From positions 32,001 through 96,000 of the forward strand of contig JAQBVF010000004.1 of assembly GCA_027623675.1 (NCBI GenBank): a stretch of DNA of 64,000 nucleotides, read 5' to 3'. Position numbers and translations under genes: made by a program. The notes under the pieces are model-generated. The model was not told the origin of the DNA. It saw only the letters and a list, made by a program, of their open reading frames with translations, and made no database searches. Source of the DNA: Chloroflexota bacterium. Its GTDB lineage: Bacteria > Chloroflexota > Dehalococcoidia > Lucifugimonadales > UBA3495. Positions 16,768 through 53,996 of the stretch are shown in pieces (the first letter of the stretch is position 1; each line of letters begins with the position of its first letter).

Positions 16768-18123
16768 TCATATTGATTTCGGCGCCTTGGCCCAGCCGTC
16801 GCCCCAGGGAACATCGGCAAGGTTCCTGGAGCGGCGCACTTCGTTGATGGTGAGGACGCCCCGGTCCAAAAGCTGCGCCTCACGCGAAACCCGGACGGAC
16901 TCGTCTTCGCTCAAACCCTCGATTGCGGAGAGGTCGAATTCAAGCTCCAGACCGGGGTACCCCAGGGCCGGAAAAAGGTTGCGTGTGACCTGGTCAGCGA
17001 TGAAGCGCATCTCAGGGACCATGGTATTGCGCCAGAAGAAACGCTCGGCGGCGTTCACGTTGGAGAATGTGGCCCGTTCCAGGTCCGACAGGAGCGGCTT
17101 GGGGACACCGTAGGTCCGGCTGACCTCCTCCAGGCTCCAACGCAGGCCCTGGATGAAGTCCATCTCGCGGTGGCTGATGCCCAGGGTTTTGATGTCCCGG
17201 ACAAAGCTGGCCACGGCGGGCCGGTGCGCTTGCGAGGGGCCGCGAAACCGGGCTTCCCAACGCCGGTAGAACTCCTCCATCTCGTTGTCGGTCATAGTCT
17301 CGTTGGTCAGCAAGACAAAGTCGGGTTGGGCGGAGTTGCGTAGGAAATTACGGTTGAATCGTAGGCTGTCCTTCCCCATGTCGGCCGACATGCGCAGCGG
17401 GGCGATGGGCGACAGGCCGGCGTAGTCTTCCAGCGGGTTGAAGTACCGGAACCAGACCATCTCGTCGGGCGTGTAGGCCACGCGCCCGTCCCGCCCGTTG
17501 TAGACGAATCCTCGGATGTGCTGGCCGCGGTCCGGTACGATGCTAACCCGGTCGGGCCGCAGGGGCCACAACTCTGGTTGCCCCTTCTCGTTGCGCTCGA
17601 TCGACCAGAAGGCAGACCCCCATAGGTTCAGGTAGATCTCCGTGGCCCGCCAGAGGTCGCTGCCGTTATACCAGCGGTTGGCGTGTTCCAAGATTCGTTG
17701 GGCCGGGTGGCCGCGTTCCACGGGCACCCGGCTCCCGGATTCAGTGGTGCGGTATACGACCGCCGGAGCGCGGCTCAGGGCGTCGGACCGCAACCGGATG
17801 GCTGCGTATACCGGCACCGAGGTGGCGTAATATTCGCCGTACTCGGTGCGTGCCCAACCGCCGTTGCTTCCGGCGAACCCTGGGAACCCGTCGACGTCCA
17901 CGGTTGACGCGCGGTTGGCCCGTTGGACGGTGTCCAAGTCTCGGGCTGAGTGTCTTGAAAACCCAGGCAGAAAACCTGGCGCCAGATCCAAAGCCTGTGC
18001 TATCAATCTGGATGCGGCCTGTTTAATCAGACCGTAGACTTGTCCCGTCGTCTGCCGCACGGCTGATTGCTCCGTCCTGGCCGTCTGGTTCGACGGCAGC
18101 GTGGATCTTTGCCTTTCTGTCAT
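16768..18123 (-). CDS. Phage portal protein, HK97 family
   Basis: VYAAI, LWGSAFW, LWPLRPDRV, GLSPI, YGVPKPLL, ATFSN, LTINEVR...WGD; ATG overlaps terminase TGA (ATGA). Confidence 0.93.
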   Translation of the reverse strand: MTERQRSTLPSNQTARTEQSAVRQTTGQVYGLIKQAASRLIAQALDLAPGFLPGFSRHSARDLDTVQRANRASTVDVDGFPGFAGSNGGWARTEYGEYYATSVPVYAAIRLRSDALSRAPAVVYRTTESGSRVPVERGHPAQRILEHANRWYNGSDLWRATEIYLNLWGSAFWSIERNEKGQPELWPLRPDRVSIVPDRGQHIRGFVYNGRDGRVAYTPDEMVWFRYFNPLEDYAGLSPIAPLRMSADMGKDSLRFNRNFLRNSAQPDFVLLTNETMTDNEMEEFYRRWEARFRGPSQAHRPAVASFVRDIKTLGISHREMDFIQGLRWSLEEVSRTYGVPKPLLSDLERATFSNVNAAERFFWRNTMVPEMRFIADQVTRNLFPALGYPGLELEFDLSAIEGLSEDESVRVSREAQLLDRGVLTINEVRRSRNLADVPWGDGWAKAPKSI

Positions 18124-19469
18124 ACCCACAACCTCGTTTTGTTGGCTGATTCCAAGAAGGCCAGCATCAGAGCGTCGGCTTTATCTGGGGATGGGAGTCC
18201 CCGTTGGCGCATGCCTTCTTTGCTTTCCATCTGGATCCGGCCTTGGCTGTCGTAGCTGTAGCGCAGGGCGGCCAATTCGCCCATCAACTGGTGGTCGTTG
18301 GGAATGGCGATCTCGCAGGCCGCGAATAGTTCCCTGAGCCGCCAGTAGCCTTCGGCGCGCAGGTTGGCGAATAGACCATCCTGGCCGGCACGGCGGGCCA
18401 CGTTGATGCCTTTTACCGGGTGACCCTGTTCCTTGAGGCGGTCGACCACGCCTGCTCCCACTCCGATCTCGTCGATACACACCCTTTCGGGAGAGGTGTC
18501 CCGGATGGCCGCGGCCACCCACCCGGCCAATCGCATGGTGTCCATGTTCCGGAAGGTCTGAATCTCCATCACCCGCCCGCCCTGCCTGCGGAGGATGACG
18601 CTGCGGTCGGAGCCGAACCGGGCCACGTCCACCGCCAGGATGACGTCTTCGCCGCTTTCATTGGCGCCGCTGGGTACAACAGCGGTCCAGCGGCACGCGG
18701 CCTCTTCCACGTCGGTCAGGCCGATCAAGGTGTCTTCGGCCTGGTCTGGGAATTCGCCCAGCACCCTGGCCCGATATATGGGGTTGTCCTCGCCCCAGGT
18801 CTCCCGGCGTTCCTCCACCCACCGGGCTGAGGTGAGCCCCGGCACCACCGATCTCCCTGCCTTGACGTTTGGGCTGTCCAAGGCGGAGATGGTGATGTTG
18901 TGGTAGAGGTGCCGTTCCTGGTAGAAGGCCCGGCGAAAGGCGCCGGTCACCGTGGTGGGATTGCCGATCAGCAGCAACAACGGATCGGCGGAGGTCATCA
19001 CGGCTTCGATGGCCTCGTAGATCTCGTCGCTAACGCCTTCCGCCTCGTCGACGACTATCAGCATGTTGGGGCTGTGAAACCCCTGGAACTGGTCGGCGTT
19101 CTCCGCGGACAGGCCCATGGCGTAGCGGTCGTCGGCGATCTCCCAGCGGGTGTCCAGCATCTTGCCGCCCAACAGCTCGGCGTGGGGCCGGAAAAGACGG
19201 TGGACCTGCCGCCAGAGGATGTGCCGCACCTGGCGGAATGTAGGGGCGGTGCTAAGGGCGATGGCGGCGTCTCGGTGCGTGTGCAAGAACCACAACAGGG
19301 TTACGGCGGCGCAGAAACCCTTGCCCAGGCCATTGCCCGATTTGACCGCAACCCGGCGGTGCCGCACCAATGAGTCGAGGACCTCTCGTTGTTTGTCCCA
19401 AAGATTGACGCCCAGTATGTCGGTGGCGAACTCAACTGGAGTCGGGGCGGTGCCCGAAGGTCCCGGCAT
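18120..19469 (-). CDS. Phage terminase large subunit
   Basis: Walker A-like VKSGNGLGKG, Walker B IVVDEAEG, IGNPT coupling motif, RNase H-like nuclease VDVARFGSD, DEIGVGAG, SPDKADAL; start estimated. Confidence 0.92.
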   Translation of the reverse strand: MPGPSGTAPTPVEFATDILGVNLWDKQREVLDSLVRHRRVAVKSGNGLGKGFCAAVTLLWFLHTHRDAAIALSTAPTFRQVRHILWRQVHRLFRPHAELLGGKMLDTRWEIADDRYAMGLSAENADQFQGFHSPNMLIVVDEAEGVSDEIYEAIEAVMTSADPLLLLIGNPTTVTGAFRRAFYQERHLYHNITISALDSPNVKAGRSVVPGLTSARWVEERRETWGEDNPIYRARVLGEFPDQAEDTLIGLTDVEEAACRWTAVVPSGANESGEDVILAVDVARFGSDRSVILRRQGGRVMEIQTFRNMDTMRLAGWVAAAIRDTSPERVCIDEIGVGAGVVDRLKEQGHPVKGINVARRAGQDGLFANLRAEGYWRLRELFAACEIAIPNDHQLMGELAALRYSYDSQGRIQMESKEGMRQRGLPSPDKADALMLAFLESANKTRLWV

Positions 19470-29128: not shown

Positions 29129-29848
29129 TCACCGGCCGCGCCCGTCGCCCCACAGAATGATGTGCAGCCGGGTGGTGAATCGGAACCCGTGCTTTGCGCA
29201 CACGTCAGGCAGCCACGAACTGTTCCTCGCCAAGGCGGCTGGCGTCCGGCCCTCGGGCATCAGGAGGACCCGCTCCGACGGCAGTCCGTATTTCTCCTGC
29301 AGCGCGCACACCTCGGTAACATCCTGCTCCCCGGTCACGACAAATTTGAAGTAGGCCGTCGGCAGTTGGGCGAACGCCTCCAGGGCTTGGGGAATCTCCC
29401 GCGCCTCGGGTGAATTGCTCGAAGTGCGCAGCTTGGGGGACACGTTCCATTGGCTGATGTGCCTCAGCATCCCCGGCAGTGGCGCGATGGTCCCGTTGGT
29501 CTCGACTTCGAAGGTATAACCGGCCGCGGCCAGCGATTCGGTCAATGGCTCCAACTCCGCTTGTTGCAGCAAGGGCTCGCCGCCGGTTATCACCACGTGA
29601 GAGCAGTCGAACGCCCGGATGCGCCGCTCTAGATCGGCCGCGGTCAGCTCCATCACCTCGGTCTGATAATCGAAGTTTTGCCAGTCCCAGGTGTATTTGG
29701 TGTCGCACCAGGCGCAGGCCAGATTGCAAGTGGCCAGGCGCAAGAACACCGAGGGGACGCCCATGGAGACACCCTCGCCCTGAATGGAGTGGAATATCTC
29801 GGGTTTGCCTCCTGAGCGTCGGCTTACTTTTAGCATCAACGGCGGCAT
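29129..29848 (-). CDS. queE: 7-carboxy-7-deazaguanine synthase QueE (radical SAM)
   Basis: EIFHSIQGEG, CNLACAWCDT, TGGEPLLQ, ETNGT, VSPKL, RLHIILWG. Confidence 0.95.
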   Translation of the reverse strand: MPPLMLKVSRRSGGKPEIFHSIQGEGVSMGVPSVFLRLATCNLACAWCDTKYTWDWQNFDYQTEVMELTAADLERRIRAFDCSHVVITGGEPLLQQAELEPLTESLAAAGYTFEVETNGTIAPLPGMLRHISQWNVSPKLRTSSNSPEAREIPQALEAFAQLPTAYFKFVVTGEQDVTEVCALQEKYGLPSERVLLMPEGRTPAALARNSSWLPDVCAKHGFRFTTRLHIILWGDGRGR

Positions 29849-29851
29849 CCC

Positions 29852-30583
29852 CTAGTTGGGCAGGGCCGGGTCGAGATAACCGGCGTCCCTGAAGCCGTTG
29901 GCCCTCAAAATGCAGCTATCGCACCGCCCGCAGGGGACCTCCTCCCCTTGGTAGCAACTCCAGGTGAGCTCCAGAGGAGCGCGGAGTTCAATGCCCAGCC
30001 GCACGATATCGGCCTTGGACATCGCGATTATCGGCGTTTCGATCTGCAATGGGACCTGGTACTCGGTCCAGAGCTTGCTGCCGTAGCCCAGGGACTCGCC
30101 CATCTTCTCGAAGAATTCGGGACGGCAGTCGGGGTAGCCGCTGTAATCGACGGCGTTGGGGGCCATGTAGAGCATGGCTTGGACGTCGGCCGGAGAGACG
30201 CCTTCGATCTCGATTGCGTGCAGCGCCTGGCTCTCCAGGTAGGCGGCGGCCAGGGCCAGGAAGATGGTGTTGCGCAGGGGCACATAGGTGATGGGGATGC
30301 TGTTGCCCATCTGGGCAGCGTCGCGGTCTTCGGGCATGGGGAAGCGGCCGGGGTTGGTGAGGGCCGAGTACCACGCCACCTTGCCCAAGAAAGAGATGTC
30401 CATCAATTCCTGGGGAATGGCCAAAGAGCGGGCAACCGCCTCGGCGCAATACACCTCTTTGCTGTGGACCTGGCCGTAGTGAAAAGTTAGGGCCGACAAG
30501 TGGTCGGTCCTGTCCTTGGCGAAGGCCGTAACGGTGGTGGAGTCCAGCCCTCCGGACAGCAGGCTGATGCCGTAGCTGGGCAT
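29852..30583 (-). CDS. queC: 7-cyano-7-deazaguanine synthase QueC
   Basis: LSGGLDS, TYVPLRN, DYSGYPDCR, TWSCY...PCGRCDSC. Confidence 0.96.
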   Translation of the reverse strand: MPSYGISLLSGGLDSTTVTAFAKDRTDHLSALTFHYGQVHSKEVYCAEAVARSLAIPQELMDISFLGKVAWYSALTNPGRFPMPEDRDAAQMGNSIPITYVPLRNTIFLALAAAYLESQALHAIEIEGVSPADVQAMLYMAPNAVDYSGYPDCRPEFFEKMGESLGYGSKLWTEYQVPLQIETPIIAMSKADIVRLGIELRAPLELTWSCYQGEEVPCGRCDSCILRANGFRDAGYLDPALPN

Positions 30584-30587
30584 GGAC

Positions 30588-31007
30588 TTAGCTGCCCCCG
30601 TGGTATTCGGCGTATTGGTTCACCGACTCCCAGAGCCGGACCTTGGCCGGAGTGATGCCGCATAGTTCCACCGTCTTCTCGTACAACTCCCGGCTCATTA
30701 CCTCGCAAGACGGGTTCTGGTCTTGGAACTGGTAAAGCCGCACCAGGCTCGTGTTGGCGAGCCCGGCGATGAGTTCGCTGTCTCTGCTATTCACCAAGAA
30801 GGCGTGGTCCCAATTCTCGTCCACCCACGATTTGACCCGGTCCTTGAGGCTGGTGAAATCGTAGACCAGGCCCAGGCTGTTCAAGACCGGCGACTCCAAG
30901 AAGACTTCGGCCCGGTAGGTGTGGCCGTGGGGGTAGGCGCATTTGCCTTGATAGTCCAACAGGCGGTGGCCGCTGTCAAAGGTGAATTCGATTCGTATCT
31001 GGTACAT
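30588..31007 (-). CDS. queD: 6-carboxytetrahydropterin synthase QueD
   Basis: FDSGHRL..Y.GKC..PHGHTY, DF, WDH, NPSCE, LWES. Confidence 0.93.
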   Translation of the reverse strand: MYQIRIEFTFDSGHRLLDYQGKCAYPHGHTYRAEVFLESPVLNSLGLVYDFTSLKDRVKSWVDENWDHAFLVNSRDSELIAGLANTSLVRLYQFQDQNPSCEVMSRELYEKTVELCGITPAKVRLWESVNQYAEYHGGS

Positions 31008-31037
31008 AGATCGGGGGTGGGGTCTCAACCGCGAGGG

Positions 31038-31472
31038 TTATTTGCTGTCTTTGGCGCGGTTATATTCCACGGTCACCGCGGTATGCAATCCGCCACGGAC
31101 CTTGTAGTCCAGGGTGATCTTCATGGATTGGGGCTGGCAGACGGCCACCAGGTCGTTGAGTATGCGGTTGGCGGCATGCTCCTGGACGATGCCCACGTCC
31201 CGGTAGGACAGCAGGTAGAACTTCAGCGATTTCAGCTCGATGCAGGAATCGCTGGGGACGTAGAAGATGCGCAGGTCACCGTAGTCGGGCAGTCCGGTCC
31301 ACGGGCATACGGCGGTGAATTCGTCGGTGTCTATCTCAACCTGGGACTGCTGGTCGGGGTATTCGTACCGGAAGGTGAGCAGGCATTCGGGGTTGATCGC
31401 CTCCTCCCCCTTGGCCGGCAGCTCCTGGTCCAAGCCTTGGTACTGTTCTTTCAAATCTCTGATGGTTGCCAT
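31038..31472 (-). CDS. queF: preQ1 synthase (nitrile reductase QueF, type I)
   Basis: EFTAVCPWTGLPDYG, ELKSLKFYLLSYR, EH, VRGG; GGAGG SD. Confidence 0.95.
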   Translation of the reverse strand: MATIRDLKEQYQGLDQELPAKGEEAINPECLLTFRYEYPDQQSQVEIDTDEFTAVCPWTGLPDYGDLRIFYVPSDSCIELKSLKFYLLSYRDVGIVQEHAANRILNDLVAVCQPQSMKITLDYKVRGGLHTAVTVEYNRAKDSK

Positions 31473-31537
31473 GCGCGCCTCCGTGGTGCCGTCCCGTTGG
31501 GTATCGTTCGCTTGATGTTCGCCGGGGCCTGGCAATA

Positions 31538-31567: not shown

Positions 31568-31644
31568 AGCGTGTTGCGCGGTCCGGTGGCCGGAGATAAG
31601 ATACGGGCACCCTGGTTGGAGTCCGGTTGGGAGAGCATATCGCC

Positions 31645-32175
31645 ATGGCTCAAGCAGGCCTCGAAGCCCATTCGTTGAAAGGTTTGGACGCCATGTCCAT
31701 AGAGCAGGCACAGACGCTGTCTTTCCAAGAACGAGATGCACTGCTGGACCTGATCATCGCCGATGGCCGCCACGACGCCACCGGGGCGGTCTCCTACCGC
31801 TCGGGCATGTACACCGATTACTTCGAGGAAGACCTGACCCGGATGCTCAAGGTGAAGGCGGTCAAGGTCTACGTGCGGGGCACCACCTCCTCTAACTTCG
31901 ACGGACAGGTGGTCGGCGTGACCTTCATGGAGCAGTACCGGGCCTGTTTCCGGCACGTGGAGACCACGCTTGCGGCGGCCAGGACCAACTTTAGCCGCGT
32001 GGTCAATATGGTGGTCTTCCTGACGAACATAGATAATTGGGCCAAGTTCAACGAAGTGTTCCGCGAGTTCGTGCCCAACCCGCCCTGCCGAGCCGTGATT
32101 GGCGCCACCGGACTGGCCCAAAAGGCCATCGCCATCGAGATAGTCGACTGTTTCGCCTACCGGGTGGCGGACTAA
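31645..32175 (+). CDS. RidA/YjgF family protein with N-terminal extension
   Basis: EQYRACF..V...L...VVFLT...FNEVF.EF....PPCR..IG...L....IEI; start uncertain. Confidence 0.8.
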   Translation: MAQAGLEAHSLKGLDAMSIEQAQTLSFQERDALLDLIIADGRHDATGAVSYRSGMYTDYFEEDLTRMLKVKAVKVYVRGTTSSNFDGQVVGVTFMEQYRACFRHVETTLAAARTNFSRVVNMVVFLTNIDNWAKFNEVFREFVPNPPCRAVIGATGLAQKAIAIEIVDCFAYRVAD

Positions 32176-32262: not shown

Positions 32263-32700
32263 ATGGCTAACCTGACATTGGCCTATAAAGTGCGCGGCTA
32301 CAGCACCGGCAACCTGGGCCGGGCCATCTGCAACGCCCGGACCCATCATTTTGTCGCTGACGATGGCGGCGGCGATGAAGTCGGCGCCGGCGAGTTCTTC
32401 TTCTCGGGCATCTCGGCCTGCGCGGTGAACATGGTGGAGCGCATCGCCGATCGAGACAAGATCGCCTTGGACTGGATGGACGTCAGCGTGGAGTCCTACC
32501 GCGACTCGGATGCCGACCACGGCGACCTGTCGCTCTACGACGCCATCCGGATCAAGTTCGAGATGTGGGGCGTGGACGACGAGGACGCCCAAAATCTGGT
32601 GGAGACCTGGAAAAAGCGTTGACCGCTTTACGGTTCGGTCGCCGTGGCGACTGCTGACACCACCGTGGAACTGGTCCACCATAGTGAAAAATATCGGTAG
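32263..32700 (+). CDS. OsmC/Ohr-like protein, predicted selenoprotein (U120)
   Basis: GISAC first Cys; in-frame TGA at 32620-32622 in KKR-U-PLYGSV, where the family has a C-P motif; frame continues to TAG 32700; SECIS-like hairpin follows. Confidence 0.85.
32623..32670 (+). promoter_or_regulatory. Bacterial SECIS-like element (OsmC-like gene)
   Basis: GTCGC-CGTG-GCGAC apical hairpin with GU at +22/+23; lower stem TTTACGGT/ACCGTGGA. Confidence 0.65.
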
Positions 32701-32783
32701 CTCATCCGGCCGGCGGTTGGCCGCCGGCAGCCAATAGCTAATTGCCAACCAAACGGCTGATGCCTGTCAGTCAGAGAGGATAT

Positions 32784-33719
32784 ATGCGAATCTGCTCTTT
32801 CCTGCCCAGCTCCACCGAGATGGTGTACGACCTAGGTCTCCAGGACCAACTGTACGGCGTGACCCATGAGTGCGACTACCCCCCCGAGGCGCGGAACAAA
32901 CCGCATGTGGTCCATAGCGTCTTCGAAGGCCAGGAGCCGACCAGCGGCGAGATCAGCAAGGTCATCTCCGAGCGTTTGGCCCAGGGCTTGGGCATCTATG
33001 AGATAGACACCAGATTGCTGCAGGAAGCCGAACCGGACCTGCTAATAACTCAAGCCATCTGCGAGGTTTGAGCAATCTCGTCTCGGCAGGTGGCCGAGGT
33101 TAGCATCGGACTGGCAAAGCAACCGGAGATCTTATCGTTGGACCCGCTTCATATCGGCGACGTCGTTGAAGACCTCAACCGCCTTGGACGCGCCACGGGC
33201 ACCGAGGCCAAGGCGGCGGAAATCACCGCCGGACTCACCGCCCGGATCGAAGCGGTGACCCTGCGGGCCAAGGACGCCGACAAGCATCCCAGCGTGCTCC
33301 ACGTGGAATGGGCGGAGCCGGTGATGTGTGGTGGCCATTGGGTGCCCGAGATGACCGAGTTGGCCGGCGGGACCAACAGTTTCGGCGACAAAGACACCGG
33401 GACGCTGAAGCTGGATTGGGACGAGGTATTGGCCAGCCAGCCTGAGGTCATCATCATGATGCCCTGCGGCTTCGACGTTAAGCGCGGCCTGGAAGATGTG
33501 CCGCTGATGGCCGCGAAAGAGGGTTGGGCGTCGCTGCCGGCAGTGAGGAACAACCGTGTCTACGTGGTTGACGCCGGGGCCTACACCAGCCGCTCCGGCC
33601 CAAGGCTGGTAACCGGCTTGGAGATCATGGCTGAGATGATTCACCCCGAACTGTTCTCGGGCATGATTCCGGAGGGGGCGGCGCTGCGTCTCTTCGGTGA
33701 CCTGGCCAAGACGAGCTAG
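32784..33719 (+). CDS. BtuF/TroA-like cobalamin/Fe-siderophore-binding fold protein, predicted selenoprotein (CxxU, U96)
   Basis: MRICSFLPSSTE, GVTHECDYP, TQAICEV-TGA-AIS (family pattern TQxxCxVCA), GHWVPEM, MPCGF, SRSGPRL; both track ORFs share one frame. Confidence 0.88.
33072..33104 (+). promoter_or_regulatory. Bacterial SECIS-like element (BtuF-like gene)
   Basis: TCTCGGC-AGGTG-GCCGAGG hairpin, loop GU at +19/+20 after TGA. Confidence 0.65.
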
Positions 33720-37244: not shown

Positions 37245-37619
37245 CTAGTGGCTGCCGCAACCGCCGCTGCCGCAACCGCAGCCCCCGCCGCCGCTGCCAC
37301 AGCCGCATCCGCTGCCGCAACCGCCAGAGCTGGCGAACATGGGGTTGTTAATCACGAAGCCCACCTGGCCGCCCAGGTTCTCCACGTAATCGATCGTCGC
37401 CTCTTCCAGGAAGGGCGCGCTGTCTGAGTCCATGAGGAAGTTGACTCCCTCTTTGGCCAAGACCGTGTCGTCAGCCTGGGTCTCGGTCTCCATGGTCAGC
37501 ATATATTGAAGTCCGCCCGTTTCAGCGGGAATGGCGACCACCCGCAGCGAACCATCAGTTTCACCCTGTTCGTGCATGACTTCCTTGAGCTTCTCGATGG
37601 CGAGGGTTGTTACTTCCAT
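37245..37619 (-). CDS. HesB/IscA/ErpA-like Fe-S carrier with Cys/Gly-rich tail
   Basis: LRV, Y.L, D.DS...L....IDY......GF.INNP; tail GGCGSGCGCGSGGGGCGCGSGGCGSH. Confidence 0.85.
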   Translation of the reverse strand: MEVTTLAIEKLKEVMHEQGETDGSLRVVAIPAETGGLQYMLTMETETQADDTVLAKEGVNFLMDSDSAPFLEEATIDYVENLGGQVGFVINNPMFASSGGCGSGCGCGSGGGGCGCGSGGCGSH

Positions 37620-38010: not shown

Positions 38011-38838
38011 ATGCCGACTAGCACCCACCGATCCGGGTTGGACCGCCGCCTTTTGTTGGAGTCGCTGCAAGCCTTCAGCCGGGGCGCCCAAGAAGCGCCA
38101 CTGGTCACCAAGTGGACCCACTTTCCTGGGTTTGAACCAGGGCCCGGACCTGGGAATGAATCGCCAGTTGGGATATCCGCCAAGTACTCGGGTGAAGACC
38201 CGGCTGGCGGAGCGGTCACGTTCGTTCTCTCCACCGACGATGTGGACCGGCACGGCGATATCATCAGCGCCGATGGCTGGGTCCTGGATTCCTACCGTGA
38301 GAACCCCGTACTGCTCTGGGCCCACGACTACCGGCATCCGGCGATCGGCCGGGCGGCTAAATTGTGGGCCGAGCCCCACCGGCTCCTGGCAATCATGGAG
38401 TTCGCCCCCACCGGATTCGCCCAAGAGATCGCGTCGTTGTACCGGTCGGGATTCCAGTGGGGAGTCTCGGTGGGGTTCAAGCCCCTGCGCTACGAAGAGC
38501 GGCGGGACGAGAAGACTGGAGCGTTCCTGGGCCTAAGGTTCTTGGAGCAAGAACTGCTTGAAGTGAGCGCGGTCCCGGTGCCCGCCAACCGCAGCGCCCT
38601 CCGCCGGGACGGTCAGCCTGACCGTGATGCTTTGACCGCGCTATGGCCGGTGCTGGCGTCGCAGGTTGATGAGTTGGTCAAACTGGCTGAGGAGATATCG
38701 GACACGGTGGCCGAACTGGAAAATACCGCCAAAGCCGCCAGACATTCAGCCGTACATGATTCTAAACCGGCTAAACAGTCTGCACAGGCGGTCTCGGTCC
38801 CGGGCCTGATGGAGGTGCTGCGTTCCGGCCGGAACTGA
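38011..38838 (+). CDS. HK97-family phage prohead protease
   Basis: FVLSTDDVDRHGDII...GW.LD.Y..NPVLLWAHD, IG, SVGF.P, QELLEVSAVPVPANR; AAGGAGG SD. Confidence 0.93.
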   Translation: MPTSTHRSGLDRRLLLESLQAFSRGAQEAPLVTKWTHFPGFEPGPGPGNESPVGISAKYSGEDPAGGAVTFVLSTDDVDRHGDIISADGWVLDSYRENPVLLWAHDYRHPAIGRAAKLWAEPHRLLAIMEFAPTGFAQEIASLYRSGFQWGVSVGFKPLRYEERRDEKTGAFLGLRFLEQELLEVSAVPVPANRSALRRDGQPDRDALTALWPVLASQVDELVKLAEEISDTVAELENTAKAARHSAVHDSKPAKQSAQAVSVPGLMEVLRSGRN

Positions 38839-38964
38839 CCTGAGCTGCTTAGACGAAACGACAGCCAAAGGGATAGACGCACAGAGCATGTGACCCCATC
38901 GCACGACACACGGGCGGTCCACCCTCGGCCCTGGCGGGCAATCAAATCAAACTAGGAGTTGACC

Positions 38965-40014
38965 ATGACTATCGCGGCGCAAGACTTGGAACTGATAAAA
39001 AGGGAGCTGTCCAGCATCCGGGAATTCTACGACTCCAGGATCGACGCGGAGATCCCTCCCCTCAAAGAGGAATTGGACCGCATCGGCGGGCAGTTGAGCC
39101 AGGTGCAGGAGATGTGGCGGGATGGGGAGAAGCGGTCCCTGCTGTCCCGCCACGCCGGCGAAAGGTCCAGGGTTGCTTTCGGAAAATACGCCGGACTGGA
39201 CCATCTGGACATGGCCTGCGTGCGCAGCCTGCTAACCGCCCAGATGCGTGAGCCTTCTGGCGTCAACCCCCGCATGCTGGACGACTGGCAGTCCAACCTG
39301 AAGGCGGCCATGGACTCCACGTCTTCCGGCTCCGGCGACGAACTGGTGGATACTCAAGAAGCCCGGGCGCTGTGGGACGACGTCAATCTGGAGACCTCGA
39401 TCGCTCCCCTGTTCAACACCGTGCAGATGCCCAGCAACCCCTTTCAGATCCCCCTGCAGATGGGCGACGTCAACTGGTATCCCGGCACTGAGAACGTGGC
39501 GACCAAGAGCACCAGCCTGACCACCGCCCGCCAGACCCTGACCGCCTACGAGCTGGTCGCCGAGGTTCCCTGGTCCTACGACCTGGACGAGGACTCGGTC
39601 ATCGCCATGATGGAGGAACTCCGGCGCAGCCTGATGCGAAACGCCCGCGAGGTGATCGACGACGTGATCTTGAACGGCGACACCACCGCAACCAACAACA
39701 TCAACGCCGACGGGACCACCATCGCCAGCACCGACGCGGGCAAGGGCCAATGGCTGCTGGGGTTCGACGGCCTGCTGCATCTGCCGCTGGTGGACAACAC
39801 CGGCCAGAGCATTGACCACAACGCCGCCGTCTCCGATGACATGTTTAACGAGGTCCGCTCCAAGCTGGGCAAGTACGGGGTGCGGCCCTCCGAAGCGGTC
39901 TACGTCACCGACGTGAACACCTTCATAAGGTCGCTCAGCGTTTCCAACTTCCGCACGCTGGACAAATTCGGCCCCCAGGCAACCCTGGCGATCCGGCAAC
40001 CAAGCAAACGTTAA
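38965..40014 (+). CDS. HK97-fold major capsid protein (C-terminus appears truncated)
   Basis: N-terminal coiled-coil (delta-like) segment, GDELV, QMPSNPFQIP, LDEDS, ILNGDT, GFDGL, LGKYGV.P; ends abruptly after KFGPQATL. Confidence 0.82.
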   Translation: MTIAAQDLELIKRELSSIREFYDSRIDAEIPPLKEELDRIGGQLSQVQEMWRDGEKRSLLSRHAGERSRVAFGKYAGLDHLDMACVRSLLTAQMREPSGVNPRMLDDWQSNLKAAMDSTSSGSGDELVDTQEARALWDDVNLETSIAPLFNTVQMPSNPFQIPLQMGDVNWYPGTENVATKSTSLTTARQTLTAYELVAEVPWSYDLDEDSVIAMMEELRRSLMRNAREVIDDVILNGDTTATNNINADGTTIASTDAGKGQWLLGFDGLLHLPLVDNTGQSIDHNAAVSDDMFNEVRSKLGKYGVRPSEAVYVTDVNTFIRSLSVSNFRTLDKFGPQATLAIRQPSKR

Positions 40015-46603: not shown

Positions 46604-47803
46604 CTACCGGGCGATCCCGTAGGCCACCGCTTGCACTTCCTTGTCCTCGTCTTGCCGCATCCGGTTGCCTAAGGCGACTATCATGGCGCCCATGGCGGTA
46701 TCCGACCAGAACCACTCGTGGATCTCACGGTCGGCGCCGTCGGGCCTCTGGGCCATGCGGGCCTCATAGTAGAAGGCCTTTAGGTCGTCAACACAATAGC
46801 GGATGAACTGGGGAACGGTGAAATCCTGAGGCCGTTCTTTCATGTCGGTCTCTTCGCCGCTGATGTAGCCCTCGAGGAACCGGATAACCCCCCGGAACCG
46901 CCGCTGCGGAATGGTGCTCAGTCCCACGGCTGTCCGCCCGGCGTGGGCGTTGCTCCACTGCTCGTAGTAGGCCCGCAGTGAAGTTAGTTCGTCGGCCGCG
47001 TTAAGATTTTCTTTCTCAGAGGTGTTGGTTCTTTCGGAACCCTGAATCAGGATGTCCGGGACCATATCGTCGGGAAGCTGCTCCAGGACCGGCCCTTCTT
47101 GGCGGTCTAGGAGGTCGAAAGTGGCCTGCAATACCCGGTGCTGGTATTCCGGGTTGTCGGGCTCGCCCAAGGCATTCCCGAAGAAGAAGGGCACGGCCAA
47201 CATGCGGGGCGGTTTCACCCGCTGGGCATGTTCCTCGATCAGGACGATCCCGGTGGTGGTCAGCCCAAACTCTTCAAGCACACGCGCAATCACGCTTACA
47301 GCGTGAGAGCAGGCCGGTCAAGTTGGGGTCAGCAGCACCACCTCAACGCCCTCGGCCTTGAGACGACGCGCGACCTCCGGCCCCGACTCCTCGATGATTC
47401 CAGTCACGTTCCGAAGCGCGCCCATGAAGGAGTAATAGTTGTCCGACAGGGAGCCAATCTTCCCCTGATCGACCAACTCAGGCAGGCGGTCGATGGGGAA
47501 GGTGACGTTGATGTCTCGGTAGATGCCGGTATGGTCGAACCCGATACTGGTGTGGCTCTGGATGATGTCGGCGGCGCCGGCGCTGCGAGGGATGACCCGG
47601 AAGGACGTGTCCCCGCCTCCTTTGTGGTCGGCGATGAAGGGTTTGTCGCCCCGCACATGCAGCCCCGCCGTGGTAACCAGGCCCAGTTTGCTCTTGGACA
47701 GCGGTTTGGCCATGGGGGTCCACGGAGTGTCGTCATGCTCAACGCACGGCCACATCAACATGCTCTTTCTCTGAATCTCGCTCAGGGCCGATAGCTTTGG
47801 CAT
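46604..47803 (-). CDS. GrdB/PrdB-like selenoprotein B family protein (UxxC, U162) fused to a C-terminal helical domain
   Basis: LVTTAGLH, GDTSFRVIP, DINVTFP.DRL.EL...G.IG, FMG, VLLTPT-TGA-PACSHAVS.IAR.LE..G..T; TGA at 47318-47320, both track ORFs in frame. Confidence 0.92.
47286..47317 (-). promoter_or_regulatory. Bacterial SECIS-like element (GrdB-like gene)
   Basis: TCACGCT-GTA-AGCGTGA hairpin, GU at +19/+20 after TGA. Confidence 0.7.
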
Positions 47804-48010: not shown

Positions 48011-49381
48011 ATGGCCGCAACCATCGTCATCGCAGGGGTCCGCAGCGGTGTGGGCAAGACCACCATCGCCAGCGGTATCATGGGCGCTCTCCACCGGCGG
48101 GGCCTGAAGGTTCAGCCGTTCAAGGCCGGCCCCGATTACATCGACCCCTCCTACCACAAACTGGCTTGCGGCGTCCCCAGCCGCAACCTGGACACCTGGC
48201 TCTGCCAACACGACACGGTGCTTGAGCTGTTTCAGAGGGCCAGCGCGGGGAGCGGCGTATCCGTTGTGGAAGGCGTCATGGGCGTTTTTGACGGCCACTC
48301 CAGCCTTACCGAAGAGGGCTCCACCGCCCAACTGGCCAAACTGCTGGGAGCGCCGGTGATTCTCATCGCCGACGCCGCCAAGGTTGCCCGCAGCGTGGCG
48401 GCCGAGGTGCTGGGCTACCAACAGTTCGATCCGGACCTGAACGTGGCCGGAGTGATCCTGAACGGCGTGGGCAGTGACCGGCATCTGGAGTTCTGCAAAC
48501 CTCAGATCGAAGCCACCACCGGGATCCCCGTCCTTGGCTACCTGCCCCGGAAGGACGAGTTCATCCAGCCGGAACGCCATCTGGGGCTGATACCAACGGT
48601 TGAAGGCACAGTGGCCCGGCAGTGGTATGACAGCGTCATCGCCCAGATCGAGGCGACCATGGATGTGGATGCCATACTGAGGCTGGCCCAAACGGCTAAG
48701 ACGCCAACCGCCAGCTCTTCGGTATACCCTGAGACATCGATCCCGGCCCGGACAACCATAGCGGTGGCCCAGGACAAGGCGTTCAATTTCTACTACCAGG
48801 ACTCTCTAGACCTATTGGAAGCATGGGGGGCGGAGCTGGCCCCGTTCAGCCCGCTGGAAGACGGCAAACTGCCGGCGGGAGTAGGAGGCATCTACCTGGG
48901 CGGAGGATTCCCCGAACTGTTCGCCGCCCAACTTGCCGCGAACAAGCCGATGCACGAGTCGGTGCGGCAAGCGGTGGCCAGGGGCGTGCCGGTCTACGCT
49001 GAATGCGGCGGCCTGATGTACCTGGGAAAGAGCCTGTCTGACCTGGAGGGCGCAACGCACCCCATGGTCGGCGTCATACCGGCGGAGTCGGCCATGTCCC
49101 AGACCCGCTTGACCCTGGGGTACCGCGAGGTCGAGTCATGCTCCGACAATCCGGTGCTGACGACGGGACAGCGGGTGCGGGGGCATGAATTTCACTGGTC
49201 AACCCTGGCCGAGCAGCCAAGACCGGACGAATCGGTGTATAAAGTGGTGGACCAGGGCGACCGTCTCGACGGTTTCCGCACCGGCAATGTGTGGGCGTCT
49301 TACGTGCACATCCACCTGGGCAGCCGCCCCGGCCTGGCCACCAGGTTCGTCGAGACCTGCGCCGGCGCCGGCGGCAGCTAA
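48011..49381 (+). CDS. cbiA: Cobyrinate a,c-diamide synthase
   Basis: SGVGKTT, FKAGPDYIDP, EGVMG.FDG, ERHLGL, GGFPE, YAECGG, GHEFH, SYVHIH. Confidence 0.95.
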   Translation: MAATIVIAGVRSGVGKTTIASGIMGALHRRGLKVQPFKAGPDYIDPSYHKLACGVPSRNLDTWLCQHDTVLELFQRASAGSGVSVVEGVMGVFDGHSSLTEEGSTAQLAKLLGAPVILIADAAKVARSVAAEVLGYQQFDPDLNVAGVILNGVGSDRHLEFCKPQIEATTGIPVLGYLPRKDEFIQPERHLGLIPTVEGTVARQWYDSVIAQIEATMDVDAILRLAQTAKTPTASSSVYPETSIPARTTIAVAQDKAFNFYYQDSLDLLEAWGAELAPFSPLEDGKLPAGVGGIYLGGGFPELFAAQLAANKPMHESVRQAVARGVPVYAECGGLMYLGKSLSDLEGATHPMVGVIPAESAMSQTRLTLGYREVESCSDNPVLTTGQRVRGHEFHWSTLAEQPRPDESVYKVVDQGDRLDGFRTGNVWASYVHIHLGSRPGLATRFVETCAGAGGS

Positions 49382-49454
49382 GAAATTTTCGAATATCGCA
49401 GGGGACGCCCGCGGCCCCATGCCCGGCGTCGAACCGGCGGTATCAGGATAAATT

Positions 49455-50057
49455 ATGAGTACGGACAAACCGGCAGAACAGAGCCCCAACACGGCAGCCG
49501 AAGCAGCCGAAGGACCTCAATCGGTCACCGGCCCCAGGATCAACAAAGGTCTGTTGATCGTCAACACCGGCAAGGGCAAGGGCAAGACCACAGCCGCCAT
49601 GGGCGTTGCGATGCGCGCCTGGGGCCGCGACATGAAGGTCATAATCCTGCAGTTCATCAAGCACTCTACCGCCAATTTCGGCGAGCAGCGGGCCGCCCAT
49701 AAGATGGGCATCGAGATTCGAGCCATGGGCGACGGCTTCACCTGGCGTTCCAAAGACCTGGACCAGTCCGCCGACCTGGCGCGTGCCCAGTGGGAAGACT
49801 GCAAAGAAGTGATAGCGTCAGGCGACTACGATCTGGTGGTCCTAGACGAGTTCACCTACCCCATGCACTACGGATGGGTCGACACCGAAGAGGTGATTCA
49901 GACGCTTAAAGCCCGCCCCGAGATGCAGCATGTGATCATCACCGGCCGCAACGCCCCCGAAGCCCTCATGGAATACGCCGACCTGGTCTCCGAGATGCAG
50001 GTCATTAAGCACCCCTACCAACAGGGCATCAAAGCCCAACCGGGCATCGAGTTTTAG
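49455..50057 (+). CDS. cobO: Cob(I)yrinic acid a,c-diamide adenosyltransferase (CobO/BtuR)
   Basis: [42 protein letters not shown]. Confidence 0.96.
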
Positions 50058-50103
50058 TCCAGGCTGGTTGATTCAGATTCAGCCCGGCCAACGGAGGTTG
50101 AAT

Positions 50104-50733
50104 ATGCCGACTCCAACGTTTGAAGAAGTCTGGGAAAGGCTTAAAGAATTGGAAGGCAAGACCATCATTACGCTGGGAGTCAAACGTCCTAATCGCATCG
50201 TTGGATTCTCGGCAAGCAAAATGATTCGGCAGACGCGAACCAGCGACGGAAAGGGATGGAAGGAACCCACGGTTGTGCCAAAAAGCGCTTTTCGTGCTAT
50301 TTGGGAGAAATTAGCTGAAACCGGGGTTTGCGAGATTAGTGAAGCCAAGGGGGGATGGTATGTTGCAGCCGCATGCCTGGTCGAAGTCCCCAAGTTGGGC
50401 GTCGAATTGCTGCTGGAGAGGAAACATCCAACCATCGAACTCAAAGATTGGCAACGCACGCCCAATGTCGAAACTCGAATGAACAATGTTGACGAGGACC
50501 ATGATGGGTTCGGCGATCTTGACCGGATTGTGGTTGACCCGGACATATGCAGTGGAAAGCCGACCATCCGGGGTACCCGAATCATGGTTACCAATATTCT
50601 CGGGATGATGGCCGGAGGTTACTCGGCAGCAGGCGTTATCGAGAGCTATCCTGAATTGACTAAAGCCGACGTTTCGGCAGCCTTAGATTATGCCTCCCAG
50701 ATCGTAAACGAGGAAAAGGTAATTGCCCGGTAG
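50104..50733 (+). CDS. DUF433 antitoxin domain fused to an unknown N-terminal domain
   Basis: C-terminal RIVVDPDICSGKPTIRGTRI.V..IL...A.G......YP.L...D..AAL.YA; visibly lower GC. Confidence 0.85.
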   Translation: MPTPTFEEVWERLKELEGKTIITLGVKRPNRIVGFSASKMIRQTRTSDGKGWKEPTVVPKSAFRAIWEKLAETGVCEISEAKGGWYVAAACLVEVPKLGVELLLERKHPTIELKDWQRTPNVETRMNNVDEDHDGFGDLDRIVVDPDICSGKPTIRGTRIMVTNILGMMAGGYSAAGVIESYPELTKADVSAALDYASQIVNEEKVIAR

Positions 50734-51124
50734 TGATGAACCGCCGGTCATTCGAGTCCTTCTGGACCAAAATGTTCCGCGGGAGATTGGCACCTGGTTG
50801 GGGCAATCAAAGCCCGGGTGGCAGATCTCCCACACCAGTAGTGTGGCTCTTGACGGGGAGCCAGATTCAGCCGTGTACCGATGGGCACAAGACCACGAAG
50901 CCGTCGTCGTGACGTTTGACGGGGACTTCGCGGACCGCCGTGGATTTGCAGTTGGCATCCATTATGGAATAATTCGTCTTCGAGTGTGGCCCACCACCGT
51001 GGAAGAGACTATCTTGGCATTGCAACGGCTTTTTGAGGCTGTGGCAGACTGCGAGATCGTTGGTGCCTTGATAATCGTAGGACGGAACACCATAAGGGTC
51101 CGCTCGCTTAGACGACCAAGTTGA
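50723..51124 (+). CDS. DUF5615/Mut7-C-like PIN-domain toxin
   Basis: VLLDQNVP, D..V..WA, VVVTFDGDF, H.GII.LR, RVR.L; overlaps the DUF433 gene. Confidence 0.85.
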   Translation: MPGSDEPPVIRVLLDQNVPREIGTWLGQSKPGWQISHTSSVALDGEPDSAVYRWAQDHEAVVVTFDGDFADRRGFAVGIHYGIIRLRVWPTTVEETILALQRLFEAVADCEIVGALIIVGRNTIRVRSLRRPS

Positions 51125-51140
51125 GAATAGGAGGGCCGCA

Positions 51141-52229
51141 TTGGCTATCTCAGACCTTATTGACCGCACGATAAGCGAAATCGTGCCCCTGGACGAGGAC
51201 GCAATGTCCGCCGCCCGGGCCAGGCAGGACCAACTTACCAAGCCCCTCGGCAGCCTGGGCCGCTTGGAAGACCTTTCGGTACAGCTCGCCGGGATCTTCG
51301 GTCAGGCTACCCCCAGCATCGGCAAGAGGACCGTCATCTTGGCGGCCGGCGACCACGGCGTGGTTGCCGAGGGCATCAGCGCCTACCCGCAGGACGTGAC
51401 CCCGGCCATGGTGATGAACTTCCTGGGCGGCGGTGCAGCCATCAACGCGCTGGCGAAGCACGCCGGGGCCGACATCGTGGTCATCGACGCGGGGGTAGCC
51501 GCCGACCTGCCGCCGCACCCGTCCCTCCGCTCGGCCAAAGTCGGGCCGGGCACCGCCAACATCGCCGTCGGGCCGGCCATGACCCGGGAGCAGGCGATTC
51601 AATGCCTGGAGATAGGCATTCAGGCGGCCACGGAGCAGATCGCAGCCGGCGCTGACCTGATCGGTTGCGGCGATATGGGCATCGGCAACACCACCCCATC
51701 ATCCGCAATCACCTCGGTGATCACCGGAGCAGCTACCGACGTCACCACCGGAAGGGGCACCGGCCTGGACGACACCGGCCTGGCCCACAAGGCTTCAGTC
51801 GTCCAGCGGGCCATCGACGTCAACCGCCCCGACCCCAAGGACGGCCTGGACGTACTGATGAAGGTTGGCGGGTTCGAGATCGGCGTGCTGGCCGGCGTGT
51901 TCCTTGGGGCCGCGGCCGGTCATCGTCCCGTGGTGGTTGACGGGTTCATATCCGGCGCGGCGGCGCTCATCGCCTACACCATCGCCCCCGAGGCCGTACA
52001 CCGGTTCATCGCGTCCCACCAATCGGTTGAGCCCGGACACCGCCTCGCCCTCGCCCACATGGAACTGAGCCCGTTGCTGGACCTGGGAATGAGGCTGGGT
52101 GAAGGCACCGGAGCAGCCCTGTCCATGCACATCATCGAAGCGGCGGCGAATTGCCTTTCCGGCATGGCCACCTTCGCCGAGGCCGGTGTCTCCGGGAAGA
52201 TCGAAGACGGCGAGGAGGCTGGCTCCTGA
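51141..52229 (+). CDS. cobT: Nicotinate-nucleotide--dimethylbenzimidazole phosphoribosyltransferase
   Basis: LTKPLGSLGRLE, DHGV, GGAAIN, MGIGNTT, GGFEI, DGFI, RLGEGTGA, MATF. Confidence 0.97.
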   Translation: MAISDLIDRTISEIVPLDEDAMSAARARQDQLTKPLGSLGRLEDLSVQLAGIFGQATPSIGKRTVILAAGDHGVVAEGISAYPQDVTPAMVMNFLGGGAAINALAKHAGADIVVIDAGVAADLPPHPSLRSAKVGPGTANIAVGPAMTREQAIQCLEIGIQAATEQIAAGADLIGCGDMGIGNTTPSSAITSVITGAATDVTTGRGTGLDDTGLAHKASVVQRAIDVNRPDPKDGLDVLMKVGGFEIGVLAGVFLGAAAGHRPVVVDGFISGAAALIAYTIAPEAVHRFIASHQSVEPGHRLALAHMELSPLLDLGMRLGEGTGAALSMHIIEAAANCLSGMATFAEAGVSGKIEDGEEAGS

Positions 52230-53029
52230 TCTCCGGCTGGCTCAATTCCCTCAGATTGGCGGTGACCTTCCTCACCATCTTCCCGGCCTCGCGCGGCCTG
52301 GACATCGGCCCGAAAGACATCAGCAACTCCCGGGCCTTCTACCCCGCCGTGGGGCTGCTGATGGGCCTGCTCTTGGTTGGCGTCGAATACGGTTCCAGCC
52401 GGCTGTTCCCCGAGCCGTTGACCGCCGCGCTTCTGGTGGCGGTCATGGTCATCGTCACACGGGCACTCCACCTGGACGGACTGATGGATGTGTGCGACGG
52501 CGTATTCGGCGGCTTCACCCCGGAACGGCGTTTGGAGATCATGCGCGACTCCCGGGTGGGAGCGTTCGGCGTGGCGGGCGGCGTGACCCTCCTGTTGCTG
52601 AAGTACGGCGCATTGCTCGCCTTGCTGACCCTGCGTGAGCCCGGCAAGGAATGGGCGTTGCTGCTGTTTCCGGCCCTCTCCCGGTGGACTATGGTGGTCC
52701 TGCTGGGGGCCTTCCCATACATCAGGTCGGCGGGATTGGGGTCGCCTTTCCACGGGGTCGATACCAAGAAATCCACCGGATTCGCCGGCCTCACCGCCTT
52801 GGCAGCCGCTGTCCTGTTGGGCGGGTTCGCCGGGCTGGGTCTATTCTTCGGCGTCGTCGTCCTGGCATGGTTCCTGGGTTGGGCCATGGCCAAGTCCCTG
52901 GGTGGGCTATCCGGCGACACCTACGGCGCAACCAACGAGATGATCGAGACCGTGGTCATCATTGCCGCCGTCGCCCTGGCAGGCCAGGAATGGCTGGAAC
53001 CGCTGCCCAACCTGCTGGACCGTTTGTGA
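52226..53029 (+). CDS. cobS: Adenosylcobinamide-GDP ribazoletransferase (cobalamin synthase), probable CTG start
   Basis: FLTIFP, LHLDGL.D..DG, RLEIMRDSRVGAFG, GG.SGDTYGA; GAGGAGG SD 7 nt before CTG, which overlaps the cobT TGA. Confidence 0.93.
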   Translation: MISGWLNSLRLAVTFLTIFPASRGLDIGPKDISNSRAFYPAVGLLMGLLLVGVEYGSSRLFPEPLTAALLVAVMVIVTRALHLDGLMDVCDGVFGGFTPERRLEIMRDSRVGAFGVAGGVTLLLLKYGALLALLTLREPGKEWALLLFPALSRWTMVVLLGAFPYIRSAGLGSPFHGVDTKKSTGFAGLTALAAAVLLGGFAGLGLFFGVVVLAWFLGWAMAKSLGGLSGDTYGATNEMIETVVIIAAVALAGQEWLEPLPNLLDRL

Positions 53030-53979: not shown

Positions 53980-53996
53980 CAGCGATAGCATATTAG

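What the first reader, a model, noticed from the sequence alone, without database searches (positions are those of the whole stretch)
32784..33719. BtuF-like binding protein is one gene with an in-frame UGA: CxxU selenoprotein with no signal peptide or transporter
Seen: two ORFs in one frame are joined by TGA (33069-33071) in TQAI-C-E-V-U-AIS, where the family pattern I recognise is CxVC. A CTCGGC/GCCGAG hairpin with a GU-containing loop follows at +11..+27. The protein starts at MRICSFLPS with no signal peptide, and no ABC permease or ATPase is nearby. Inference: a cytoplasmic periplasmic-binding-fold protein with a redox or metal-binding CxxU site, possibly a corrinoid/metal chaperone or enzyme. 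I cannot confirm whether Sec forms are already catalogued; the function appears uncharacterised.
Basis: partly seen in the sequence, partly recalled or inferred. Interest (0 to 1): 0.75.

Follow-up and report, generated by a model that had tools for sequence, protein, structure and literature searches.

The report
Catalogued BtuF-like selenoprotein, likely B12 handler
The two reading frames are one gene whose internal stop codon almost certainly encodes selenocysteine, a case already listed in published catalogues, and the protein is likely not a transport component but an untested in-cell handler of vitamin B12 that would use its sulfur and selenium residues on the cobalt.

Summary
Observation confirmed. 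32784-33719 is one 311-codon frame with a single TGA at codon 96 (C93-E-V-U96). The codon is Cys in 143 of 144 distant relatives, TGA in 49 of 49 distinct close Dehalococcoidia/SAR202-type orthologue loci, followed by a hairpin meeting the published bSECIS rules, in a genome with selA, selB, selD and tRNA-Sec. It is not new: two reviews list 'cobalamin-binding protein BtuF, CxxU' among predicted selenoproteins, and this scan reported it before on other genomes. Added here: (1) the whole family lacks signal peptides, keeps four cleft-edge cysteines (138 of 144) and is a clade apart from true BtuF; (2) Cys forms in several phyla lie in cobalamin-riboswitch operons or next to corrinoid adenosyltransferases, beside a separate signal-bearing BtuF (9 of 80 loci clear B12 context; 61 none); (3) Cys228 falls where IsdE has its haem-iron ligand (inferred); (4) the upstream OsmC-like gene is also read through a conserved UGA. 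Best guess: a cytoplasmic cobamide chaperone/reductase before adenosylation (about 45%); a four-thiolate metal site is the main rival. Function untested.

The parts
32784..33719 (+). Gene for a 311-aa signal-less class III binding-protein-fold selenoprotein (PF01497)
   Evidence: model pLDDT 96.5; matches BtuF 1n4a Z 24.6, rmsd 2.4 A over 240 residues
33069..33071 (+). In-frame TGA = Sec96 of the C93-x-x-U96 motif
33082..33098 (+). bSECIS hairpin, 6-7 bp stem, AGGTG loop 16 nt after UGA
   Evidence: rules from PMC13188914
33060..33062 (+). Cys93, first residue of CxxU, in a loop insert right after the position of BtuF W85
   Evidence: 142 of 144; mapping
32871..32873 (+). Cys30 (H-E-C-D), next to the position of BtuF cavity residue Y50
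   Evidence: 140 of 144
33465..33467 (+). Cys228 (P-C-G), C-lobe cleft loop; inferred equivalent of IsdE His229
   Evidence: 142 of 144; match ranges
32774..32780 (+). Purine-rich ribosome-binding site before the ATG
   Evidence: sequence; in relatives an in-frame stop often lies 0-10 codons upstream of the same ATG, leaving no room for a leader
32263..32700 (+). Upstream OsmC-like gene, also read through a UGA (Sec120 at the second Cys position), 83 nt before the BtuF-like gene
32620..32622 (+). In-frame TGA of the OsmC-like gene (annotated as its stop)
   Evidence: TGA in 42 of 42 distinct loci that hold the gene
32636..32653 (+). bSECIS hairpin of the OsmC-like gene, 7 bp stem, CGTG loop
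   Evidence: codons 125-129 at 0.95-1.0 top-codon share
31627..32175 (+). RidA/YjgF-family gene, first of the likely three-gene run
   Evidence: PF01042; same order in most family loci

Best explanation
This is one gene whose UGA96 is almost certainly recoded as selenocysteine, giving a signal-less protein with the predicted fold of vitamin-B12/haem binding proteins that likely works inside the cell as a cobamide chaperone-reductase rather than as a transporter subunit. Shown: the frame, the motif, the SECIS, the Sec machinery, the lack of leader, four near-invariant cysteines, and B12 operon context of some Cys relatives. Inferred: the protein would hold a corrinoid in its two-lobed cleft, Cys228 would act as a thiolate ligand to cobalt (BtuM-like), and the C93-x-x-U96 pair (with Cys30) would supply electrons to reduce Co(III) or strip the upper ligand (cyano, hydroxo, damaged alkyl), handing the cofactor to a CobA- or PduO-type adenosyltransferase. 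In this B12-synthesising organism the job would be recycling or maturation of its own cofactor; Sec would speed the thiol step. Probabilities: Sec 0.97; cytoplasmic and not an ABC receptor 0.93; B12-related role 0.55-0.6; this full mechanism about 0.45 for chaperone with thiol chemistry.
For: Sec; selA in 60 of 61 family genomes. No leader in 144 representatives whereas the true BtuF genes of the same loci have leaders and no Cys. No FecCD permease in this genome (27 bits only; none by tblastn); strong FecCD hits in 18 of 61 family genomes while 199 of 201 hold the family. B12 context: cobalamin riboswitch heading a TonB-receptor operon that holds the gene in L096, L101, L110; adenosyltransferase starting within about 20-70 nt downstream in L097, L105, L127, L148; CobB/CobQ-type gene 34 nt upstream in L156; these loci lie on at least four separate branches of the family tree. 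Precedent: BtuM ligates cobalt through a Cys, decyanates B12 and is encoded beside btuR (PMC6072759, passages). C30, C93/U96 and C228 follow the strands that end at the cleft. The genome makes and uses B12.
Against: 61 of 80 distant loci show no B12 neighbour, and the seeds were partly drawn from those loci. The Sec form itself, in 21 long family stretches, sits among ridA/osmC/que/lonN/kef genes, not B12 genes; the cob cluster is 14 kb away and none of the 3 riboswitches is near. None of the six BtuF cavity aromatics is kept identically (PMC5269720), and two inserts (about residues 44-70 and 91-98) may fill the cleft. The fold fits haem receptors as well as BtuF (Z 25.6 vs 24.6, tied). No coordinates were available to measure Cys-Cys distances. 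Why a genome needs three paralogues is unexplained.
Confidence: 0.45

Rival explanations
1. The four residues C30, C93, U96, C228 converge on one metal site (Co, Zn or an Fe-S cluster); the protein is a cytoplasmic metal chaperone, store or electron carrier, in B12 operons perhaps for cobalt.
For: Exactly four thiols, all four present in 138 of 144, with conserved H28, E175, W176, H/N185, W186; loss of BtuF aromatics and two inserts near the cleft; a ferredoxin gene directly upstream in one Chloroflexota group (L107 group).
Against: C228 is in the other lobe and maps to an axial tetrapyrrole-metal ligand position (inferred); immediate neighbours are B12 import and adenosylation genes more often than cobalt transporters; Cys-to-Sec change is by general knowledge typical of redox-catalytic Cys.
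Confidence: 0.3
2. A general thiol/selenol oxidoreductase working with the neighbouring OsmC-like selenoprotein (peroxide or damaged-metabolite repair); B12 context in relatives is secondary.
For: Two Sec genes 83 nt apart; OsmC-like gene within the fetched stretch in 42 of 49 Sec loci; RidA neighbour; thioredoxin/DsbA-type neighbours in L144, L159, L174 and a DCC1-like fusion P0245.
Against: No OsmC-like hit in the 80 distant loci (one search found it only in family loci); a CPA2 antiporter often separates the two genes, so the link may be plain synteny; riboswitch control in three phyla points to B12.
Confidence: 0.17
3. An ordinary periplasmic BtuF serving an ABC transporter encoded elsewhere.
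For: PF01497 and fold; databases name relatives 'cobalamin-binding protein'.
Against: No leader family-wide; 37 bits against a cut-off of 234 for BtuF; no FecCD here; separate true BtuF in the same operons; Glu at the two docking columns (E72/E202, recalled) in only 46 and 44 of 144.
Confidence: 0.04
4. A nonsense mutation, split gene or sequencing error.
For: Databases hold 95-aa and about 204-aa halves; no RNA or protein data seen.
Against: Always TGA, never TAA/TAG, at a column that is Cys elsewhere; both halves equally conserved (0.87, 0.82); frozen stem codons.
Confidence: 0.02

Closest known systems
'Cobalamin(-)binding protein BtuF' predicted selenoprotein family (cd01144, CxxU, one Sec; table entries in PMC9312934 and PMC13188914)
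   Same: BtuF-like fold, CxxU motif, one Sec
   Different: Nothing found. The entries give only name, motif and accession; I saw no functional text in the passages. The source they cite (PMC5029168) has no 'BtuF' in main text or five supplements. I could not fetch the listed accessions.
Canonical BtuF (E. coli, V. cholerae) and class III haem receptors (PhuT, ShuT, IsdE)
   Same: Two-lobed helical-backbone fold, Z 23-26, about 20% identity; hhalign probability 98.4
   Different: No signal peptide, no cognate permease, four invariant Cys/Sec, two inserts, cavity aromatics replaced; separate clade (SH-aLRT 99, quick tree with long outgroup branches)
BtuM (Cys-ligated, decyanating B12 transporter) and human CblC
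   Same: Proposed job only: thiol-based upper-ligand processing next to an adenosyltransferase (PMC6072759)
   Different: Unrelated folds (membrane S-component-like; CblC flavin-dependent); activity shown for them, untested here
SaoB/SaoX ABC substrate-binding selenoproteins (NF040727, NF040735)
   Same: Sec in a binding-protein-type protein
   Different: No NCBIfam hit to either; other motifs (CUxxT, UxP); they come with a permease
OsmC-like selenoprotein family (PMC1088965; NF041052) for the upstream gene
   Same: PF02566 fold, one Sec, SECIS
   Different: Motif is U-P-L-Y at the second Cys, not UxxT; 26 bits against a cut-off of 95

Membership tests
Bacterial selenoprotein | In-frame UGA aligned to conserved Cys of homologues | tested here: met
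   Cys in 143 of 144, 14 of 14 other rows
Bacterial selenoprotein | UGA conserved in other genomes | tested here: met
   49 of 49 distinct orthologue loci; all 150 listed best matches carry a TGA; also L102
Bacterial selenoprotein | bSECIS: 3-9 nt loop, G in first two positions, 16-37 nt from UGA, MFE <= -7.5 | tested here: met
   5-nt AGGTG loop, 16 nt, -11.8 kcal/mol; energy z-score not significant
Bacterial selenoprotein | selA, selB, selC, selD in the genome | tested here: met
Bacterial selenoprotein | Selenium found in the protein | not testable with these tools
   needs MS or 75Se
Catalogued 'BtuF CxxU' selenoprotein | BtuF-type domain with CxxU and one Sec | tested here: met
   PF01497, fold, motif; CDD cd01144 itself is not held
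Catalogued 'BtuF CxxU' selenoprotein | Homology to listed accessions RUA21600.1 / MDE0719563.1 | tested here: inconclusive
   neither accession appeared in 20 cluster look-ups
Canonical BtuF (NF002894) | Score above curated cut-off | tested here: not met
   37.2 vs 234 bits
Canonical BtuF (NF002894) | Signal peptide or lipoprotein anchor | tested here: not met
   1 residue before strand 1 vs 21-46 in true BtuFs; family-wide; no SignalP tool was available
Canonical BtuF (NF002894) | Cognate BtuC/FecCD permease | tested here: not met
   (genome 91% complete)
Canonical BtuF (NF002894) | Cavity aromatics Y50, W66, W85, F162, F168, W196 | tested here: not met
   map to E29, I71, Q90, E175, M181, T207; Y72 and W176 lie one residue off
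Canonical BtuF (NF002894) | Binds cobalamin | not testable with these tools
   needs assay
BtuM/CblC-like B12 processing (works-like) | Encoded with B12 import and adenosyltransferase genes | tested here: inconclusive
   yes in 9 of 80 distant Cys loci, not at this locus
BtuM/CblC-like B12 processing (works-like) | Cys-Co ligation and decyanation | not testable with these tools
   only positional inference
OsmC_like_Se (NF041052), upstream gene | Score above cut-off and UxxT motif | tested here: not met
   26.2 vs 95 bits; U-P-L-Y

The most novel reading that the evidence does not exclude
The signal-less four-cysteine 'BtuF' family (966 clusters at 50% identity with E <= 1e-30, bacteria and archaea) is a widespread, unrecognised prokaryotic counterpart of human CblC: a periplasmic-binding fold turned into a cytoplasmic enzyme that ligates cobalamin through Cys, strips or reduces its upper ligand and feeds adenosyltransferase; the SAR202-type form does this with selenocysteine, tying selenium supply to B12 recycling in an abundant aquatic lineage.
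Probability: 0.3. Interest if true: 0.7.

Novelty: new member of a known kind. Interest (0 to 1): 0.3.

Why it matters
As a selenoprotein call it is an annotation fix: databases split the gene into 95-aa and about 204-aa pieces and cut the upstream OsmC-like gene 25 codons short. The value lies in the function: a large family is labelled 'cobalamin-binding protein' or 'ABC substrate-binding protein' though it cannot be exported. If it processes B12 inside the cell it would fill a gap between B12 import and adenosylation in many prokaryotes and is cheap to test, because Cys forms express normally and B12 chemistry is visible by spectrum.

Tried and rejected
Hairpin significance by folding energy: none (z 0.11 and -0.81). 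Promoter/terminator scan: one weak + strand site upstream of ridA, no terminators; uninformative. RNA evidence: no RNA holder listed; no conclusion on expression. NCBIfam has no model for this family above cut-off. No solved structure of the four-Cys family (best 20-23% identity). Printing the IsdE alignment failed (it ranked below the top five), so the His229 equivalence rests on equal-length match ranges and an assumed chain numbering; IsdE H229/M78 as ligands rests on a reference title, a passage on streptococcal HtsA and recall. Borths 2002 not held. Paper searches: selenoprotein+BtuF 4 papers; SAR202+selenoprotein 0; DUF6580/DUF5522/CWC 1; BtuF+cytoplasmic+decyanation and Chloroflexi searches gave no study of this family. 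A link to the neighbouring queCDEF genes was considered and dropped: opposite strand, present in 8-12 of 21 family stretches, not among recurrent neighbours of distant loci. A language-model look-alike search was not obtained. No complex prediction was run, since adjacency alone did not justify it. The tree is the quick version; 16 redundant or frameshifted loci were left out.

Full report
1. Observation. Window 32784-33719 (+) translates to 311 residues with one TGA, codon 96 at 33069-33071, in C93-E-V-U96. A plain ORF scan splits it in two, and public sets do the same: the closest database hits are 193-214-aa C-terminal halves at 85-92% identity named from SAR202/Dehalococcoidia, with 95-aa halves in the same clusters. 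The hairpin CTCGGC-AGGTG-GCCGAG lies at 33082-33098. Contigs of two runs cover the whole stretch with no difference, though they may be the window's source.

2. The UGA is Sec. The genome (91% complete) has selA (453 bits), selB (348 bits, cut-off 242), tRNA-Sec and selD, itself with an in-frame TGA; selA was found in 60 of 61 family genomes. Of 81 loci examined, 51 have TGA and 30 TGC/TGT at this column (two TGA loci are duplicates, the Cys loci are 28 more distant Dehalococcoidia and 2 own paralogues). In the 49 distinct Sec loci both halves are equally conserved (0.87, 0.82), stem codons are frozen (CGG 49/49; GCC 96%) and loop/spacer codons are free, against 7 of 110 comparable sites elsewhere. 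The hairpin meets the four bSECIS rules given in PMC13188914 (passage), although its energy is ordinary for this base make-up (z 0.11). My strict SECIS rule hit 14 of 612 TGA-ended but 9 of 1983 TAA/TAG-ended ORFs; 12 of the 14 continue into long frames with motifs I recognise from recall as selenoprotein types. One further Dehalococcoidia genome outside the family set has C-A-E-TGA (L102) and selA; three sister Cys forms also have selA, so Sec is not forced by the machinery.

3. Already catalogued. [quoted passage not shown] The cited source PMC5029168 does not contain 'BtuF' in text or supplements. I found no functional study. Earlier notes of this scan reached the same verdict on other genomes; I had the catalogue rows before reading them.

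4. What the protein is. Pfam PF01497; AlphaFold model pLDDT 96.5 matching haem receptor 2r79 (Z 25.6) and BtuF 1n4a (Z 24.6) about equally. It is not a true BtuF: 37 bits against 234. Among 144 representatives at 50% identity (145 of 151 rows kept, >=270 aa) the start is at or near strand 1 and no extension looks like a signal peptide. C30, C93, C96, C228 are each in 140-143 of 144, all four in 138, with Q90, E175, W176, P179, W186, R270, R274. Against E. coli BtuF, whose cavity is Y50, W66, W85, F162, F168, W196 (PMC5269720, passage), C30 is next to Y50, CxxU lies in an insert just after W85, a 26-residue insert precedes W66, and no aromatic is kept identically. The C228 column falls, by equal-length match ranges, on position 229 of Lmo2184 (5joq) and chain position 200 of IsdE (2q8p), which is residue 229 if that chain is two tag residues plus 32-289; His229 is a haem axial ligand in streptococcal HtsA (PMC4684392, passage) and, from recall and a reference title, in IsdE. 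So all four thiols are inferred to line the cleft. This genome has no FecCD permease or true BtuF but three four-Cys paralogues; 199 of 201 family genomes hold the family and 18 of 61 a full FecCD.

5. Context. Locally the order is ridA-like, osmC-like, this gene, then a convergent LON-N gene; a CPA2 antiporter often intervenes in relatives. The OsmC-like gene is itself a selenoprotein gene: its 'stop' at 32620 is followed by a conserved 25-codon tail and a SECIS with frozen codons, TGA in 42 of 42 distinct loci. In 80 distant loci (best of 594) I scanned 110 neighbours and 16 chosen loci for RNA families. Three loci in three phyla have a cobalamin riboswitch before a TonB-receptor operon holding the gene (L096, L101, L110). 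An adenosyltransferase follows directly in L097, L105, L127, L148; a CobB/CobQ-type gene precedes in L156; L170 has cbiB 2.4 kb away (weak). That is 9 of 80 clear, 19 of 80 with looser markers (second BtuF, FecCD, PF01902, DUF6580, DUF5522, ECF S component), against 1.5% of sliding windows of this B12-making genome with the same seeds (seeds partly from the loci, one control genome). Where an ABC importer is present it has its own leader-bearing, Cys-free BtuF. The B12-linked loci are scattered over the tree; the family is one clade apart from true BtuF; the Sec forms group with Dehalococcoidia Cys forms, and the 62-67% identical Cys proteins (one named from Tectimicrobiota) fall inside an unresolved Sec-rich clade (quick tree). 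This genome encodes CobN, a chelatase subunit, BluB, CbtA, cobB-cobA-cobT-cobS-cbiB-cobD at window 48011-55136, PduO, three riboswitches and five B12-binding domains above cut-off.

6. Mechanism. Best reading (0.45): a cytoplasmic cobamide chaperone-reductase. Shown: location signals absent, thiol set, operon context in relatives. Inferred: corrinoid bound in the cleft, Cys228 on cobalt as Cys80 in BtuM (PMC6072759, passages), CxxU reducing Co(III) or removing the upper ligand, product passed to adenosyltransferase. Against: most loci and the Sec locus itself lack B12 neighbours, cavity aromatics are gone, inserts may close the cleft. Rivals: four-thiolate metal or Fe-S site (0.3), general oxidoreductase paired with the OsmC-like selenoprotein (0.17), ordinary BtuF (0.04), broken gene (0.02).

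7. Verdict. A correct call and a new member of a catalogued predicted selenoprotein family; not a new kind of system. Interest 0.3, carried by the testable idea that a large mis-named family processes B12 inside cells.

Noticed in passing
window 32263-32700 (+): OsmC-like gene read through TGA at 32620 (Sec at the second Cys, U-P-L-Y), with its own SECIS; makes a two-selenoprotein gene pair.
   Followed up: yes
window 46607-47803 (-): PrdB/GrdB-like gene with in-frame TGA near 47320 (T-P-T-U-P-A-C, UxxC) and SECIS-like hairpin; 399 aa read through; TIGR04483 159 bits, below cut-off.
   Followed up: partly
G000 contigs C12, C13, C17, C18, C20, C35, C44: Selenoprotein-rich genome: six UGSC-type, a second PrdB-like, a deiodinase-like and a DUF3179-like read-through candidate (labels from recall).
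   Followed up: no
G000:C36:68020-68928 and C42:5649-6548: Two Cys paralogues (37% and 41%) with all four cysteines; one precedes a flavin reductase gene, the other is divergent from folD-queA.
   Followed up: partly
window 48011-55136 (+): cobB-cobA-cobT-cobS-cbiB-cobD cluster 14 kb downstream.
   Followed up: partly
window 29129-31475 (-): queF-queD-queC-queE cluster divergent from the ridA-osmC-btuF-like run.
   Followed up: partly
window 38011-40014 (+): Phage prohead protease and HK97-type capsid genes amid host genes; 16771-19469 (-) looks like further phage packaging genes (by eye, untested).
   Followed up: no
window 37245-37619 (-): HesB/IscA-like protein lacking the first Cys motif, with a Gly/Cys-rich tail.
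   Followed up: no
P0186, P0131, P0245: Family members fused to dephospho-CoA kinase, gamma-glutamylcyclotransferase and a DCC1-like domain; single cases, all cytoplasm-compatible.
   Followed up: no
L100:4449-6379, L101:5912-6256, L104, L097:4324-5001: DUF6580, DUF5522/Cys-rich CWC and a PF01902 ATP pyrophosphatase recur next to the family in B12 loci; a CWC protein also lies in the Sulfurospirillum cobamide cluster (PMC7755780, table passages).
   Followed up: partly
L157:5001-5923: Dehalococcoidia copy with a frameshift near the start plus TGA at the Sec column, probably an assembly error.
   Followed up: no
L170: Labelled Pseudonocardiales but its protein nests among Acidobacteriota copies: mis-binned contig or transfer.
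   Followed up: no
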